NCBI RefSeq assembly: GCF_041248615.1
Contig: NZ_CP158426.1
DNA: 64,000 nt
Strand: one strand, 5' to 3'
From: Escherichia coli
GTDB taxonomy: Bacteria > Pseudomonadota > Gammaproteobacteria > Enterobacterales > Enterobacteriaceae
How positions within the stretch are numbered: the first letter of the stretch is position 1; every line of letters begins with the position of its first letter. Positions 31,401 to 49,400 of the stretch are shown in pieces. Position numbers: made by a program.

Positions 31401-34400
31401 GCGTAAAGCGGACCTGTACGACAAAGTCAGCCAGGCGTTCACCGTCTTCCTGCCGGTACGTTCCGTTGGTGTAATGGGCGATGGTCGTAAGTATGACTGG
31501 GTTGTTTCTCTGCGTGCTGTCGAAACCATCGACTTTATGACCGCACACTGGGCGCACCTGCCGTATGACTTCCTCGGTCGCGTTTCCAACCGCATTATCA
31601 ATGAAGTGAACGGTATTTCCCGCGTGGTGTATGACATCAGCGGCAAGCCGCCAGCTACCATTGAGTGGGAATGATTAACAGCTAACTCATAGCAAATCAT
31701 TCCTATTCAGATGCCAACTCAACCCTCTGTTTTTGCAGAGGGTTTTTGTTTTTATGTATTCATTTCTATTCACTCTACACCATATTTTTCGGCGGTACAG
31801 GTGACGGTATTACCTTAAAGGTATACTCTCATACCGTCATGACAATGGTTTCTATACGGGTGAATTGTGCTTACCGATACAAAATTAAAAAACCTCAAGC
31901 CGCAGGACAAACTGTACAAGGTCTCCGATCGTGACGGGCTGTATGTAGCTGTGCTTACGTCAGGCACGGTCTCGTTTCGCTATGACTACCGTATCAACGG
32001 TCGCCGCGAAACACTGGTAATCGGGCAGTATGGGCGTGACGGTATCAGCCTGGCAGAAGCGCGAGAAGAACTGATTGCTGCAAAGAAGCTGCTTAAAGCA
32101 GGCCAGTCGCCGGCCGCGGCTAAACGTGACGGTATCAAAAAGATTCGTGGTGCCGAGACGTTTGCGGTACATACCGACAGTTATATGAAACACGTCATCC
32201 TGGCTGAAAGTACCCGCGCAATGAAGCAGGCAGTGATCGACCGTGACATACTTCCGGTTCTTGGCAACAAAATGATGGCTGAAATTACCACATCGATGGT
32301 TCGTGATTTGTGTGACCGGATTGTCGAACGCGGTGGTCGGGCAACAGCAGTACAGGCCAGGGAGATCATCAGCAGCGTATACCGTCACGCCAATGACCGT
32401 GGTCATGGTTTGTTTAATCCTGCGGCTGACATTAAACCTTCGTCTATCGCCATATTTAAACCACGAGAGCGAACACTGACACCAGAAGAAATTGGTCTGT
32501 TCTTCCGCACGCTGGATGCCATTGGTGCTATGGGCACTATGAAAATGGCTTTAAAGCTGGTGCTTATCACTATGGTCCGTAAAGGCGAATTCACCAATGC
32601 AACGTGGGATGAAATAGATTTTAAAAAATGGACATGGACAATTCCTTCAGACCGCATGAAGGGAAGTCGGGCGCACGTTATTTACCTGCCTAAACAGGCA
32701 CAGGATATATTAGTCGGGTTGCAGATGTGCGCTGGTGGAAGTGAATATCTGGTTCCTGGTCGTTACAATTTCCGGAAGCCATTATCTAATGCCGCGCTGA
32801 ACTCTCTGATCGACAGAACGGTGAAAATAATAAATGAAGATGGTGAGCATATTCAGGACTTCACCGTACACGATATGCGCCGTACAGCCAGTACGTTGTT
32901 GCATGAGGCTGGTTATCCTTCAGACTGGATTGAAAAGGCTCTGGCACATGAGCAGAAAGGTGTGCGCGCCGTATATAACAAAGCGGAATACGCCAGACAG
33001 CGCGCCTACATGTTGCAGCAGTGGGCCGATATGATTGATTCCTGGATTAACGGGGAGCATACGGATCTGATTCCGTTCTCCCCGTCGAAGTTTGAGAGGT
33101 GGATGGCGGGGGAATAACGTTTAATTATTCTGCTGATTTTCTTCCATCTCGGCTTCTGCTGCCAGTGATTCAATTTTATCTGCGAATATTGCTGACAGTG
33201 TTGCAAATTCAGCATCAGTGACAGCGGGAATTGGAACAAACCTGATCCCGCTGTGTGCAAGCATGTTTGCAGTTTCAAGGCATTTCCTTAAATCTGCTGG
33301 TGATGCCCTGTTCATGCTGCACGCTCCCGCCCCTGGTTGTCTGTTGGTGACAGCGGAGCATTGCTGAATGCATTTGTTAATCTGGCAATATCCAACGCGT
33401 ATCCAGGGTGTAGTTGCACTGCCGGGTCTTCGCACTGATTACCCCAAACATCGAAACCATGAGACGACTGGCGGGCGAACAGTTCAATGCGAGAAACATC
33501 GCCTAACAATTGCACAAGTTTTTCACGAACGATATCTGGTTTTCTTGAATGCTCAAGCCGCGGTGCGGTAAATGACTGAACGATCCCTGCATTAATGCGC
33601 GTAGGTAGTTTTCCCTTTACCGCAAACAGGCAATCTTCACTATTGGCGCGAGTCATGTGCCCCATACCCATAACCAGTTTATCTGGTTGTCGACTACCAC
33701 ATTTTATCCACGTGAAGCCCTTCATCGTCATCAGACGAAATCCCCAGGCTTCAACAACTTTTAGTGCTTCGAGTGGTTGTGTTGGCACCCACCACATGGC
33801 CAACAGACAGTTTTCATCGGCCAAATCCCACACAGGAAGGCGGCAGATATCCATCACACTCATAACCGGATATTTAAAACCGGCACCGCGATTACCATCT
33901 GCGGCTTTGTCCCGGTATACCCAGGGTGGATCTGCATAGATTAGTGTGTATTTCTTAGTCATAAACCACCCCGCAACATCCTATACCGCTATAGTCGCCA
34001 CGGCGAAGGCCGTTACCTTTTGTGATACATTGGTCCCTGCGAACCGCGATCCTTGCACGCTCAACATCACCAGAAGCAACATCCATACACTGAAGCCAAA
34101 GGTGAGCGGCAATGCGGAACTGTCCTTTTTTCTCTCTTTCAATTGCGCGTTTTTCGATCTCTATCGCCGCAGGAGTAACGGCGACAATCTTTGACGGACT
34201 GCGCATTGAAACCTTGTTCATGTGATATTTTTCAAGTCGGCTTAACTTTCTCACTTAATCCAACCCTCTCTGAAAATTAATGCCAGCAGATAAAGCCATG
34301 CTGAAACAGAGGCCAGGAATAAGTACCATCCTGACCATTTGCTCCAGTGCCTTAGCAGCACACTCATGCAGCGTTGCTCACAGGACGATATACACGTTGC

Positions 34401-46400: not shown

Positions 46401-49400
46401 TTTCCGGACTTGCACAGGCACTCTCTCCGGTGACGGTGAAGCCATTCTTCAGTACCAATACGCAGAAAGTCAGGAGGTCTGTAGATTTATGCGCTGTCCA
46501 TGAATCGCCAACACCCATATTGGCAGCACGAATGCCGTCATAAGCAGTAAAGAAATGCTCTTCAAGAATGATGCTTTCGATATATTGAGGCGTAACGCGC
46601 GGTGCCGTTTTGCCTTTCTCAACGATTTCTTTTTCGATTTGCTGGTCGTTCATAATCTCACCTTAAAAAAATGCCCGGCGAACCTGGCGAACTGGAAGCA
46701 ATGAGTTATGCCTTCCGTGGCTGTACGGGTTTACAGCATGAAGTCATCGCAATGGCGTCCTGCTGTAAAAAAGGGCGGTGATAGTCCTTCAAGGGAAACT
46801 ATCACCGCCAAGCCCCTGGAACTTCTGGCATCACGGTCCTTAGGCGTGATTCTGGCGTGGCATGCAGGATTCGAACCTGCGACCAACCGCTTAGAAGGCG
46901 GTTGCTCTGTCCGACTGAGCTAATGCCACAACGCTGAGAGCACTTAGCCTGTTAAGGCGCCACACTTTGTCGCGGCTCCATAAATGCTCTCATCGTTGTA
47001 CCCTCGTCTCTTCCGAGGCGTCACACCGAATCGCCGGGATGGTGAATCCCCGTGCGCGGAATAAAACCGCTCGACTTGCACATTCCGGCTACCTGGTTCG
47101 TTTGCCCGAGCAAGGGAGGGTGCCCCTTAAACGTATCCAGACCGCTATCGGCGCATGTGCCATACACCGTACTGCTCAAAATAAAATCTCACTCCACCTG
47201 TTCAATTTAACGACAGGCCAGTCAGGTTAGTAACCGGAATGAACTCTTTGGTTACCTGAAAGGTAATAATTTGTGCGTTAAATGTCAACTGTCTACGATA
47301 AATAAATCATATGTGGTTAAATTGGTAATAATTTAATTGCGTACGGAGTCATTGATATGTGCATGGGTAGCTCACCATCAGTGCCTGCAACACCAGAAGT
47401 TCAGGCAGCACCACAGGAGCAGGATGCCGCCGTTGTTGATGCCCGCGACGAAGAAACTCGTCGCCGTCGCGCTGCTGCTGGTCGTAGTTCTACGCTGCTT
47501 ACCGGTTCTCAGGGCGACACATCAACCGCTAATACCAGCGGTAAAACGCTGCTTGGTCAGTAACCGGAGTCATTGAAATGGCGGAAACAACTAAAGAGCG
47601 ATTGAACAAACAGTTCGCACAACTTGAAAGCGAGCGTCAGTCGTTCGAGCCGCACTGGCGCGAGTTGAGTGATTACATCAACCCACGTGGTTCCCGCTTT
47701 CTGACTTCTGAGGTCAACCGTAACGATCGACGCAATACACGCATTATTGATTCGACCGGGACTATGGCGGCGCGCACTCTCGCCAGCGGCATGATGTCAG
47801 GCATCACAAGCCCCGCGCGTCCGTGGTTTCGCCTGGCTACGCCAGATCCTGAAATGATGGATTATGGCCCTGTTAAGTTGTGGCTTGAGGCAGTTCAGAA
47901 CCGCATGAACGATATGTTCAATAAGTCGAATCTCTACCAGTCTCTTCCGCAGTTATACGGAAGCCTCGGCACATACAGCACTGGTGCAATGGCAGTGCTG
48001 GAGGATGACGAGGACATCATTCGCACAATGCCATTCCCGATAGGCAGTTACTACCTGGCTAACTCACCTCGTGGCAGTGTTGACACCTGTTTTCGCAAGT
48101 TCTCTATGACTGTTCGTCAGCTTGTTCAGGAGTTCGGGCTAAATAACGTCAGCGAATCCGTAAAAAGCATGTGGGAAAGCGGCACCTACGAGAAGTGGAT
48201 CGAAGTGATGCATTCGGTTTACCCGAACATTGACCGCGATACATCGAAGCTGGATAGCAAGAACAAGCCATTCAAATCGGTTTATTACGAGGTTGGTGGA
48301 GATAACGACAAGTTGTTGCGTGAGTCCGGATTCGATGAGTTTCCAATTATGGCTCCGCGCTGGGAAGTTAACGGCGAAGATGTTTATGGATCATCATGCC
48401 CGGGTATGCTGGCGCTTGGACCTGTTAAGGCATTGCAGCTTCTCCAGAAGCGCAAGTCGCAGTTGATTGATAAAGCCACCAATCCGCCGATGGTTGCTCC
48501 GACTTCCCTCAAGAATCAGCGCGCCTCCCTTCTTCCTGGCGACATCACGTATATCGATCAGATTACTGGTCAGGATGGCTTCAGGCCTGCTTATCTGGTT
48601 AACCCCAGTACAGCAGATTTGGTGGCAGACATTCAGGACACTCGTCAAATCATTAACAGCGCCTACTTTGTCGATCTGTTCATGATGTTGCAGAACATCA
48701 ATACCCGCTCGATGCCTGTTGAAGCGGTGATCGAAATGAAAGAAGAAAAACTTCTGATGTTGGGGCCGGTTCTGGAGCGTCTGAACGACGAATGTCTTAA
48801 TCCTCTCATTGACCGCGCTTTCTCGATGATGGTGCGCAAAAACATGCTGCCGCCACCGCCTGACGCGATGGAAGGCATGCCCCTGAAGGTCGAATACATT
48901 TCCGTCATGGCTCAGGCGCAGAAGTCTATCGGCCTGTCCAGTCTGGCGTCCACGGTTAACTTCATTGGTCAACTTGCGCAAGCGAAACCAGAAGCTCTCG
49001 ACAAACTCAACGTTGATCAGGCGATCGATGCATTCGCTGATATGTCCGGAGTGTCTCCAACCGTCATTGTTCCGCAGGAACAGGTTGAGCAGGCTCGCCA
49101 GCAACGGGCACAGCAACAACAGCAGCAACAAATGATGGCGATGGGGATGGCGGCGGCACAGGGGGCCAAGACGCTAAGCGAAGCTAAAACTTCGGATCCG
49201 AGTGTGTTGTCAGCTATGGCGAATGCAGTTAGTGGTCAGGGTGGGCAATCACAATGACAGATTACGAAGACGATCAACTGAAAGAAGAAAACGCCCGTAA
49301 GCAACGTGACATGGCGCAGCGTGAAATTGATGACATTCGCTTTGTCATGAGCAGTGAACAGGGGCGTCGCGTTGTCTGGTCGGTGCTGGAGAAAGGCCGT

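What the first reader, a model, noticed from the sequence alone, without database searches (positions are those of the whole stretch)
31810..47266. TTACC-N5-GGTAA palindrome at 11 intergenic positions across the prophage
Perfect copies occur at 36894, 37606, 39937, 39999, 44106 and 47252, with single-mismatch copies at 31810, 37623, 37654, 37991 and 44124. All are intergenic: upstream of the integrase, at the leftward early promoter region, three clustered in the repressor/Cro divergent region, upstream of the replication and nin-like operons, and directly upstream of the terminase and portal operons. A lambda-type repressor normally has operators only in the immunity region; a motif this widely spread implies either a repressor contacting every promoter or a second regulator. 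The repressor here has two HTH motifs and no S24 autocleavage domain, which fits a non-SOS, antirepressor-type induction mechanism.
Basis: seen in the sequence. Interest (0 to 1): 0.6.

Follow-up and report, generated by a model that had tools for sequence, protein, structure and literature searches.

The report
Known repressor operators of a phiV10-like prophage
The repeated TTACC-N5-GGTAA palindrome is real and confined to the prophage, but it is the operator motif already annotated in the close relative epsilon15, here in a phiV10-like E. coli prophage whose repressor and antirepressor match the solved SPC32H pair, so the finding is ordinary.

Summary
There are six perfect TTACC-N5-GGTAA copies at the stated coordinates (0.03 expected). 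Four of the five "single-mismatch" copies are correct, 37623 has two mismatches, and a one-mismatch copy at 36832 was missed. The motif is specific to the prophage and to the 5-nt spacer, and every copy lies in the 10.7% non-coding DNA.

The element is a phiV10/epsilon15-type Uetakevirus prophage at guaA (97.5% identical to phiV10). It runs past the window end, where three more copies lie. The epsilon15 RefSeq record already annotates the same motif as "protein_bind: repressor" at syntenic sites. Another 13-18 copies (at most one mismatch) occur in each complete relative examined.

The 194-aa repressor is 100% identical to phiV10 gp40 and is a full-length homologue of SPC32H Rep (PDB 5D50). 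An 85-aa homologue of the SPC32H antirepressor sits just outside the window behind a LexA box.

Best explanation: tetrameric Rep binds about 15 dispersed operators and silences each transcription unit directly, and LexA-controlled Ant releases them together. Rep binding to this motif is inferred, not shown here.

Verdict: already known; low interest.

The parts
31660..31676 (.). attL core ATTGAGTGGGAATGATT at the 3' end of guaA; left prophage boundary
   Evidence: The same 17-mer recurs at L003 41252-41268 (attR, outside the window). The core sequence is as given for phiV10, epsilon15 and ZX5 in PMC9782041.
31810..31824 (.). Operator copy upstream of int (TTACCTTAAAGGTAT, 1 mismatch); the weak GGTAT half-site recurs in relatives
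   Evidence: The syntenic copies keep the same GGTAT mismatch in phiV10 26870, epsilon15 26882, SPC32H 26960, BUCT711 12620 and BUCT554 19769.
31867..33117 (+). Tyrosine integrase
36832..36846 (.). It abuts the -10 of a leftward promoter-like site (TTGACA-17-AATCAT, 36874..36846).
36894..36908 (.). Perfect operator copy, 62 bp from 36832, upstream of the leftward early unit
   Evidence: The 62-63-bp pair spacing in this region is seen in 8 related genomes.
36966..37550 (-). rep: 194-aa repressor with an N-terminal HTH, a middle HTH-like domain, a C-terminal oligomerisation region and no S24 domain
   Evidence: 5D50_A at E 4e-42 over residues 1-190. Pfam. 100% identical to phiV10 gp40.
37606..37620 (.). 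Perfect operator in the rep/cro-like divergent region
37623..37637 (.). Degenerate operator (2 mismatches), 17 bp from 37606. It corresponds to the adjacent 17-bp operator pair of epsilon15, SPC32H, BUCT711 and L013.
37654..37668 (.). Operator (1 mismatch) overlapping the -35 and spacer of a rightward promoter-like site (TTGTTA-17-TATTAT, 37651-37679)
37705..37935 (+). cro-like 76-aa HTH protein
   Evidence: PHROG 35, transcriptional repressor, E 5.6e-13. Its HTH is conserved in 6 phages.
37991..38005 (.). Operator (1 mismatch) just after the cro-like gene's terminator and upstream of the replication unit
   Evidence: terminator-like hairpin at 37957-37976.
39937..39951 (.). Perfect operator filling the spacer of a promoter-like site: TCGACA-a-[operator]-TAAAAT (39930-39957)
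   Evidence: The operator and the TAAAAT are conserved in 7 phages.
39999..40013 (.). Perfect operator 62 bp downstream, overlapping the ribosome-binding site of the DUF1064 gene (ATG 40017)
44106..44120 (.). Perfect operator upstream of terS
   Evidence: Syntenic with the epsilon15 protein_bind feature at 12-27.
44124..44138 (.). Operator (1 mismatch), 18 bp from 44106, abutting the terS start
44141..44734 (+). terS with corrected start (RefSeq gives 44060)
   Evidence: BLASTP against epsilon15 TerS starts at residue 28 of the annotated ORF.
47252..47266 (.). Perfect operator upstream of the gp6-like and portal unit
   Evidence: Syntenic with the epsilon15 protein_bind feature at 2931-2947. 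Half-sites are invariant in 7 phages.
47305..47334 (+). Conserved block AATCATATGTGGTTAAATTGGTAATAATTT. It reads as a weak promoter-like element whose spacer holds a half-operator (TGGTT-N5-GGTAA) starting 62 bp after the operator at 47252.
Evidence: Nearly invariant in 7 phages. A colinear block lies upstream of the tailspike gene.

Best explanation
The palindromes are the operators of the prophage's own Rep repressor. The extended consensus is ATTACC-N5-GGTAAT, with half-site centres 10 bp apart, as expected for a pair of HTH domains.

The prophage is a phiV10/epsilon15-type Uetakevirus. Its genes are split into about ten short transcription units, and nearly every unit start carries one or two operators. 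The units are int, early-left, rep, cro-like, replication, nin-like, terS/terL, portal/head/tail, bro, and ant/tailspike.

Rep is tetrameric in the solved SPC32H homologue. It would bind these sites through its N-terminal HTH domains and silence each unit directly:
- By occlusion where the operator sits in or on the promoter core (39937, 37654, 36832).
- Probably by cooperative binding to paired sites elsewhere (17-18 bp or 62 bp apart), or by acting as a roadblock after the preceding terminator.

DNA damage inactivates LexA, which derepresses the small antirepressor Ant encoded just outside the window. Ant takes the Rep tetramer apart, and all units are released at once. The cro-like protein probably shares the sites in the immunity region.

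Shown here: the motif statistics, positions, conservation, and homology of Rep, Ant and the LexA box.
Inferred: that Rep, rather than another phage protein, contacts the motif, and how it represses at each site.
For: 1. Specificity. There are 7 perfect and 14 near-perfect copies in the prophage, only at spacer N5, and none perfect in 36 kb of host DNA. All lie in non-coding DNA.
2. Prior annotation. The epsilon15 RefSeq record marks seven "protein_bind / repressor / lysogeny" features, and they are this motif at the syntenic places.
3. Conservation.
   - 13-18 copies with at most one mismatch occur in each of phiV10, epsilon15, SPC32H, Tyrion, BUCT711 and BUCT554.
   - 10-12 copies occur in each of two partial prophage loci about 20 kb long: a Serratia locus (L008) and L013.
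   - A 1.25-kb contig whose Rep is only 39% identical also carries it.
   - Half-sites are invariant while spacers and flanks vary.
   - There are none in Cobetia phage Carin1, which shares the structural module but has no annotated Rep-like regulator.
4. Proteins. Rep is a full-length homologue of SPC32H Rep, and Ant of SPC32H Ant. The N-terminal HTH is the best conserved part of Rep. SPC32H Rep binds palindromic DNA as a tetramer and is disassembled by tetrameric Ant (PMC9638917, PMC9986798).
5. Experiment on the identical protein. Rep here is identical to phiV10 gp40, which PMC9782041 states is the same sequence as ZX5 ORF21. Overexpressing ORF21 abolished free phage and cut endolysin and holin transcripts by more than 99.9% (PMC9782041).
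6. Geometry. Operators overlap promoter-like hexamers at 39930-39957, 37651-37679 and 36874-36846. A LexA box lies upstream of ant.
Against: - The epsilon15 and SPC32H primary papers are not in the held library.
- The cro-like protein's HTH is equally conserved, so conservation alone cannot say which protein reads the dispersed copies.
- Operator specificity does not vary across the clade, so a repressor/operator co-variation test was uninformative.
- At the portal, terS and tailspike units no strong sigma-70 promoter overlaps the full operator. Simple occlusion is therefore not demonstrated there.
- This prophage has no operator upstream of its lysis cassette, so "every promoter" is not literally true.
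Confidence: 0.85

Rival explanations
1. A second phage regulator, not Rep, reads the dispersed copies. Candidates are the 76-aa cro-like protein and the 112-aa regulator encoded just before terS. Rep would act only in the immunity region.
For: The cro-like HTH is as conserved as Rep's across six phages. The PHROG 536 "transcriptional regulator" sits directly upstream of the terS operators. At the late units the full operator lies 50-62 bp upstream of the conserved promoter-like block. That distance is also compatible with an activator site.
Against: The same sequence occurs in the rep/cro region and at all distal sites. The epsilon15 curators assigned it to the repressor. Overexpressing the identical Rep alone shuts down lysis-gene transcription by more than 99.9% (PMC9782041). 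A tetramer with two DNA-binding pairs fits the conserved paired sites. Sharing of operators by a Cro-type protein and the repressor is the norm and would not exclude Rep.
Confidence: 0.1
2. The palindromes act as RNA or DNA hairpins, for example as terminators, processing sites or attenuators, rather than as protein-binding sites.
For: Each copy can form a 5-7-bp stem. The z-scores run from -1.6 to -3.3.
Against: The hairpins are weak (-3.3 to -5.9 kcal/mol) and lack T-runs. Separate strong terminators precede several copies. Across more than 100 copies in nine genomes the stem letters are fixed as TTACC/GGTAA, without the compensatory changes a structure would tolerate, while the loop varies. 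Several copies sit upstream of, or inside, promoter-like cores.
Confidence: 0.02
3. The motif is a host-factor site, or a target or avoidance signature of the prophage's DNA methyltransferases.
For: The prophage encodes MT-A70 and SAM-dependent methyltransferases.
Against: There are no perfect copies in 36 kb of host DNA. All copies are intergenic, whereas a modification target would be spread over coding DNA. The motif follows the phage regulatory module across E. coli, Salmonella, Enterobacter, Klebsiella and Serratia hosts. It is absent from Carin1, which shares the structural genes.
Confidence: 0.02

Closest known systems
Repressor-binding sites annotated in Salmonella phage epsilon15 (RefSeq NC_004775; genome paper Kropinski et al. 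2007, Virology 369:234, not readable here)
   Same: The palindrome is the same (ATTACC-N5-GGTAAT). The positions are syntenic: before terS, before the gp3/portal unit, before the tailspike gene, between the early-left unit and rep, and before the nin-like unit. The pair spacings of 62 bp and 18 bp are also the same.
   Different: The Rep proteins are only 42% identical. epsilon15 has three copies in the early-left region where this prophage has two. The record annotates 7 sites, whereas 15 with at most one mismatch are present. The phiV10 record itself carries no such features.
Rep-Ant lysis/lysogeny switch of Salmonella phage SPC32H (PDB 5D50, 5D4Z; Kim & Ryu 2013; Kim et al. 2016)
   Same: Rep and Ant are both homologous. 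The gene order is the same, with ant divergent from the tailspike gene. A LexA box lies upstream of ant and an operator lies between ant and the tailspike gene. Rep is a tetramer taken apart by tetrameric Ant (PMC9638917).
   Different: The host is E. coli and the immunity type is that of phiV10. This prophage also carries a Bro-N protein with a C-terminal Ant-like domain. No biochemistry exists for this Rep beyond the overexpression experiments in PMC9782041.
Mycobacteriophage L5 / cluster A repressors with stoperators
   Same: One immunity repressor has numerous binding sites distributed across the whole prophage, beyond the immunity region (PMC9283540).
   Different: Stoperators are asymmetric sites read by a monomer, and they stop elongation (PMC9283540). 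The sites here are palindromes near unit starts, and the repressor is a tetramer. The proteins are unrelated. In cluster A, repressor and stoperator specificities diversify (PMC6550527). Here the motif is constant down to 39% Rep identity.
Phage P1 C1 repressor with many dispersed operators (own knowledge, not checked here)
   Same: A single repressor directly controls many scattered operons. It is inactivated by an antirepressor-type protein rather than by autocleavage.
   Different: P1 operators are asymmetric 17-mers and C1 is unrelated in sequence.
Lambda CI/Cro switch
   Same: It has a divergent repressor/cro arrangement with clustered operators overlapping the promoters. Cooperative binding and looping between operator sets are established for lambda.
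   Different: There is no S24 autocleavage domain. The operators are not confined to the immunity region. Induction runs through LexA-controlled Ant.

Membership tests
Uetakevirus (epsilon15/phiV10/SPC32H) Rep-Ant lysogeny module | Prophage genome colinear with phiV10/epsilon15 and integrated at the guaA 3' end through the ATTGAGTGGGAATGATT core | tested here: met
   97.5% identity to phiV10 over the immunity region. The gene order matches. att cores are at both ends.
Uetakevirus (epsilon15/phiV10/SPC32H) Rep-Ant lysogeny module | Rep of about 195 aa with an N-terminal HTH, a middle HTH-like dimerisation domain, a C-terminal tetramerisation/Ant-binding region and no S24 domain | tested here: met
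   Full-length match to 5D50_A at E 4e-42. Pfam finds HTH at residues 21-67 and 104-148 and no Peptidase_S24. The domain names come from PMC9986798.
Uetakevirus (epsilon15/phiV10/SPC32H) Rep-Ant lysogeny module | Small (about 86 aa) antirepressor Ant, divergent from the tailspike gene | tested here: met
   L003 35892-36149(-) matches 5D50_E at E 1.4e-46. The gene lies outside the window, at window-equivalent 65892-66149.
Uetakevirus (epsilon15/phiV10/SPC32H) Rep-Ant lysogeny module | LexA box at the ant promoter | tested here: met
   CTGTATATTTATACAG at L003 36171-36186. It is conserved in the 7 phages aligned. LexA binding itself was not tested.
Uetakevirus (epsilon15/phiV10/SPC32H) Rep-Ant lysogeny module | ATTACC-N5-GGTAAT operators at the sites annotated as repressor-binding in epsilon15 | tested here: met
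Uetakevirus (epsilon15/phiV10/SPC32H) Rep-Ant lysogeny module | Rep physically binds the operator and is released by Ant | not testable with these tools
   This needs EMSA, footprinting or ChIP. Only indirect support is available (PMC9782041, PMC9638917).
Lambda-type CI repressor switch | C-terminal S24 peptidase domain for RecA-stimulated autocleavage | tested here: not met
   Pfam scan. The PDB search returned only 5D50 and 5D4Z.
Lambda-type CI repressor switch | Operators confined to the immunity region (OL/OR) | tested here: not met
   Copies lie at int, the replication unit, the nin-like unit, terS, the portal unit, bro and the tailspike unit.
Stoperator-type repressors (mycobacteriophage cluster A) | Asymmetric sites read by a monomeric repressor | tested here: not met
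   The sites are perfect inverted repeats. The Rep homologue is a tetramer (PMC9638917), in contrast to the monomer of PMC9283540.
Stoperator-type repressors (mycobacteriophage cluster A) | Sites block transcription elongation inside transcribed regions | tested here: inconclusive
   Several operators follow terminators at unit boundaries (37991, 39937, 44106). A roadblock role is therefore possible but untested.

The most novel reading that the evidence does not exclude
The dispersed operators may be more than independent on/off sites. They could form a phased architecture for the Rep tetramer.

Three spacings recur across genera. Full operator pairs lie 62 bp apart in the early-left and nin-like regions of eight or more phages. 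Adjacent pairs lie 17-18 bp apart at rep/cro and at terS. At the portal and tailspike units a strong upstream operator is followed, 62 or 50 bp later, by a half-operator (TGGTT-N5-GGTAA). That half-operator is embedded in the spacer of a weak conserved promoter-like block.

One tetramer could then clamp a strong site and a weak core site in a micro-loop.

A corollary follows from the need to keep about 15 sites matched to one repressor. That need may have frozen operator specificity: the motif is unchanged down to 39% Rep identity across five host genera. If so, these phages would be broadly homoimmune.
Probability: 0.3. Interest if true: 0.4.

Novelty: already known. Interest (0 to 1): 0.15.

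Why it matters
It matters little as a discovery. The motif, its dispersal and the Rep-Ant-LexA circuit are already on record for close relatives.

It has some practical value:
- It allows the operators, the LexA box and the Ant gene to be annotated by transfer in phiV10-type prophages. These occur in about 10% of complete E. coli genomes (566 of 5,426). The phiV10 record itself lacks these features.
- It corrects the terS start.

How Rep represses at the late units, and what the phased site pairs do, remain uncharacterised. PMC9986798 notes that the structural mechanism of repression has not been extensively characterised. That is a modest open question.

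Tried and rejected
1. Primary literature. The epsilon15 genome paper and the two SPC32H papers are not held, and no held paper contains the consensus string. My recollection is that the epsilon15 paper gives ATTACCWDWWNGGTAAT as the operator and that SPC32H Rep was gel-shifted on such DNA. That recollection is a lead only. The documentary basis used is the epsilon15 RefSeq feature table.

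2. Repressor/operator co-variation ("immunity swap"). This was meant to tell Rep from another regulator. Rep relatives at 78, 76, 54, 44, 42, 41 and 39% identity all keep the same half-sites, so the test has no power. More distant homologues (31-37% identity) turned out to be lone genes. Two sit in lambdoid prophages and one in a guaA-adjacent remnant. They have altered recognition helices and no motif nearby, so they are uninformative.

3. RNA hairpin or terminator reading. Rejected.

4. Chance, or a codon-driven half-site excess. Rejected by the spacer control.

5. A second motif (ATATGTGGTT / AACCATATATGGTT). I first read it as the site of a second regulator. Alignments make it more likely part of conserved promoter-like blocks with an embedded half-operator. 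This was not resolved.

6. Promoter scans. The consensus scan found fewer sigma-70-like sites than shuffles in L003 1600-18000 (10 against 19.6) and about as many in 33300-41400 (17 against 18.0). The promoter assignments are therefore tentative.

7. Technical. Several fetched loci were not available to Python, so they were read through the search tools only.

Full report
**Observation**

TTACC-N5-GGTAA occurs perfectly six times in the window, at exactly the coordinates given. Shuffles predict 0.03. With one mismatch allowed there are 15 hits against 1.14 expected.

37623 has two mismatches (GCACCTCATAGGTAA), and a one-mismatch copy at 36832 was overlooked.

A spacer control shows the signal is not a by-product of common half-sites:
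- In the prophage, N5 gives 7 perfect and 14 copies with at most one mismatch.
- All other spacers from 0 to 15 give no perfect copy and 0-3 near copies.
- The 36.4 kb of flanking host DNA has no perfect copy at any spacer, and its one-mismatch counts sit at background.

All 15 prophage copies fall in the 10.7% of the prophage that is non-coding. The two terS copies lie inside the RefSeq CDS, but that CDS start is wrong. Similarity to epsilon15 TerS begins at residue 28 (ATG 44141), and a terminator-like hairpin lies within the supposed 5' extension.

**What the element is**

The window is E. coli NRZ14408 (NZ_LT599825). The prophage is a phiV10-type Uetakevirus integrated at the 3' end of guaA.
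- It is 97.5% identical to phiV10 over the immunity region, and the gene order is the same.
- The att cores are at 31660-31676 and at window-equivalent 71252-71268.
- About 7 kb of the prophage lies beyond the window.

That outside part holds three more motif copies, at 64785, 65846 and 66226. It also holds the bro-N gene, the small ant gene, the tailspike gene and the lysis genes.

**Already on record**

The epsilon15 RefSeq record carries seven "protein_bind: repressor, lysogeny" features. They coincide with perfect copies of this same palindrome at the syntenic places: before terS, before the gp3/portal unit, before the tailspike gene, three between the early-left unit and rep, and before the nin-like unit. 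phiV10's own record has no such features, but the phage has 14 copies.

The motif is equally over-represented, at the same intergenic places, in related genomes:

| Genome or locus | Copies (at most 1 mismatch) |
|---|---|
| SPC32H | 18 |
| Tyrion | 15 |
| BUCT711, Klebsiella | 13 |
| BUCT554 | 14 |
| Serratia prophage (L008), about 20 kb examined | 10 |
| Metagenomic prophage L013, about 20 kb examined | 12 |

It also occurs in a 1.25-kb contig whose Rep is only 39% identical. Cobetia phage Carin1 shares the structural module, has no annotated Rep-type regulator, and has none.

In alignments of three intergenic regions across seven phages the half-sites are invariant, while the 5-nt spacer and the flanks vary. 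The extended consensus is ATTACC-N5-GGTAAT.

**The proteins**

The 194-aa repressor is 100% identical to phiV10 gp40. It aligns end to end with SPC32H Rep (5D50_A, E 4e-42). Pfam finds two HTH-like regions (residues 21-67 and 104-148) and no S24 peptidase. In the SPC32H structure the N-terminal region is the DNA-binding domain, the middle one is a dimerisation domain, and the C-terminus tetramerises and binds Ant (PMC9986798, PMC9638917).

The 85-aa ORF divergent from the tailspike gene matches SPC32H Ant (5D50_E, E 1.4e-46). A canonical LexA box, CTGTATATTTATACAG, lies just upstream of it and is conserved in all seven aligned phages. The antirepressor idea is therefore right. Induction, however, is wired to the SOS response through LexA, so it is not "non-SOS".

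PMC9782041 states that ZX5 ORF21 has the same sequence as phiV10 ORF40. That makes its experiment one on a protein identical to the Rep here. Overexpression abolished free phage and cut endolysin and holin transcripts by more than 99.9%.

**Mechanism**

Several operators overlap promoter-like cores:
- 39937 fills the spacer of TCGACA-a-[operator]-TAAAAT.
- 37654 covers the -35 and spacer of TTGTTA-17-TATTAT.
- 36832 abuts the -10 of a leftward TTGACA-17-AATCAT.

Others follow the terminator of the preceding unit (37991, 39937, 44106). At the portal and tailspike units the full operator lies 62 or 50 bp upstream of a nearly invariant block. That block looks like a weak promoter with a half-operator (TGGTT-N5-GGTAA) in its spacer.

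Pair spacings recur across genera. Pairs 62-63 bp apart occur in the early-left and nin-like regions. Pairs 17-18 bp apart occur at rep/cro and at terS.

The best-supported account is that tetrameric Rep silences each unit directly. It would do so by occlusion where the site is in the promoter core, and probably cooperatively at the paired sites. Ant, once LexA is inactivated, would release all units together. Rep-DNA contact and the mode of repression at the late units are inferred, not shown.

**Rivals**

- *A second regulator.* A different phage protein reading the distal copies cannot be excluded from sequence. The cro-like HTH is as conserved as Rep's, and operator specificity never varies in the clade. 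The identity of the proximal and distal sites, the epsilon15 annotation and the Rep overexpression data all argue against it.
- *A hairpin role.* The hairpins are weak, and the stems are fixed in sequence rather than co-varying.
- *A host-factor or methylation role.* The motif is exclusive to the prophage and to intergenic DNA.

**Comparison and verdict**

This is the known operator set of the epsilon15/phiV10/SPC32H Rep-Ant module. All sequence-testable defining features are met.

It works unlike lambda: there is no S24 domain and the operators are dispersed. It resembles dispersed-site repressors such as the mycobacteriophage stoperator systems only in layout. Those use asymmetric sites and a monomer (PMC9283540), and their specificities diversify (PMC6550527).

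Novelty: already known. Interest: low.

The residual open points are the phased operator pairs, the embedded half-operators, and the unchanged specificity across five host genera.

Noticed in passing
window 47305-47334; L003 36267-36296 (window-equivalent 66267-66296); window 39984-40013: A second conserved block, (A/T)(T/C)CATAT(G/A)(T/A)GGTT-N5-GGTAAT-A(A/G)(A/T)(A/T)T, lies 50-62 bp downstream of the full operators of the portal and tailspike units. A related arrangement precedes operator 39999. It is nearly invariant in 7 phages. It may be a weak promoter with a half-operator in its spacer, or the site of another factor. Related palindromes (AACCATATATGGTT with at most 3 mismatches) number 8 against 1.8 expected. 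They include copies at 38011, 65888 and 69271.
   Followed up: partly
L003 34866-35576 (-) (window-equivalent 64866-65576, outside the window): The Bro-N protein carries a C-terminal domain (residues 153-234) of the same PHROG (450) as the small antirepressor Ant. The prophage therefore encodes two Ant-domain proteins. The bro gene is preceded by a perfect operator at 65846.
   Followed up: no
window 44060-44141: The RefSeq/PGAP start of terS (TTG 44060, also used in the phiV10 record) is too far upstream. Homology to epsilon15 TerS starts at ATG 44141. The extension spans a terminator-like hairpin (44067-44086) and both operators.
   Followed up: yes
L010 676-1278; L011 10001-10600; L009 10001-10603: Distant Rep homologues (31-37% identity) occur as lone genes. 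Two sit in lambdoid prophages that have their own S24 CI/Cro pair, placed between the lysis and terminase or Q modules. A third sits in a guaA-adjacent remnant. None has TTACC-N5-GGTAA nearby, and their recognition helices differ. Their role is unknown.
   Followed up: partly
L003 38927-39344 (window-equivalent 68927-69344, outside the window): The region upstream of the lysis cassette is an AT-rich replacement. It lacks both the O-acetyltransferase gene of phiV10 and the operator that phiV10 (24692) and epsilon15 (24704) have there.
   Followed up: no
window 46853-46929 (-): A tRNA-Arg gene lies inside the prophage between the Gp49-family gene and the portal-unit operator. SPC32H has one at the same place.
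   Followed up: no
window 31810-31824 and syntenic sites in relatives: The int-proximal operator carries the same weakening mismatch (GGTAT) in phiV10, epsilon15, SPC32H, BUCT711 and BUCT554. This suggests a deliberately weak site within the attP arm region.
   Followed up: partly
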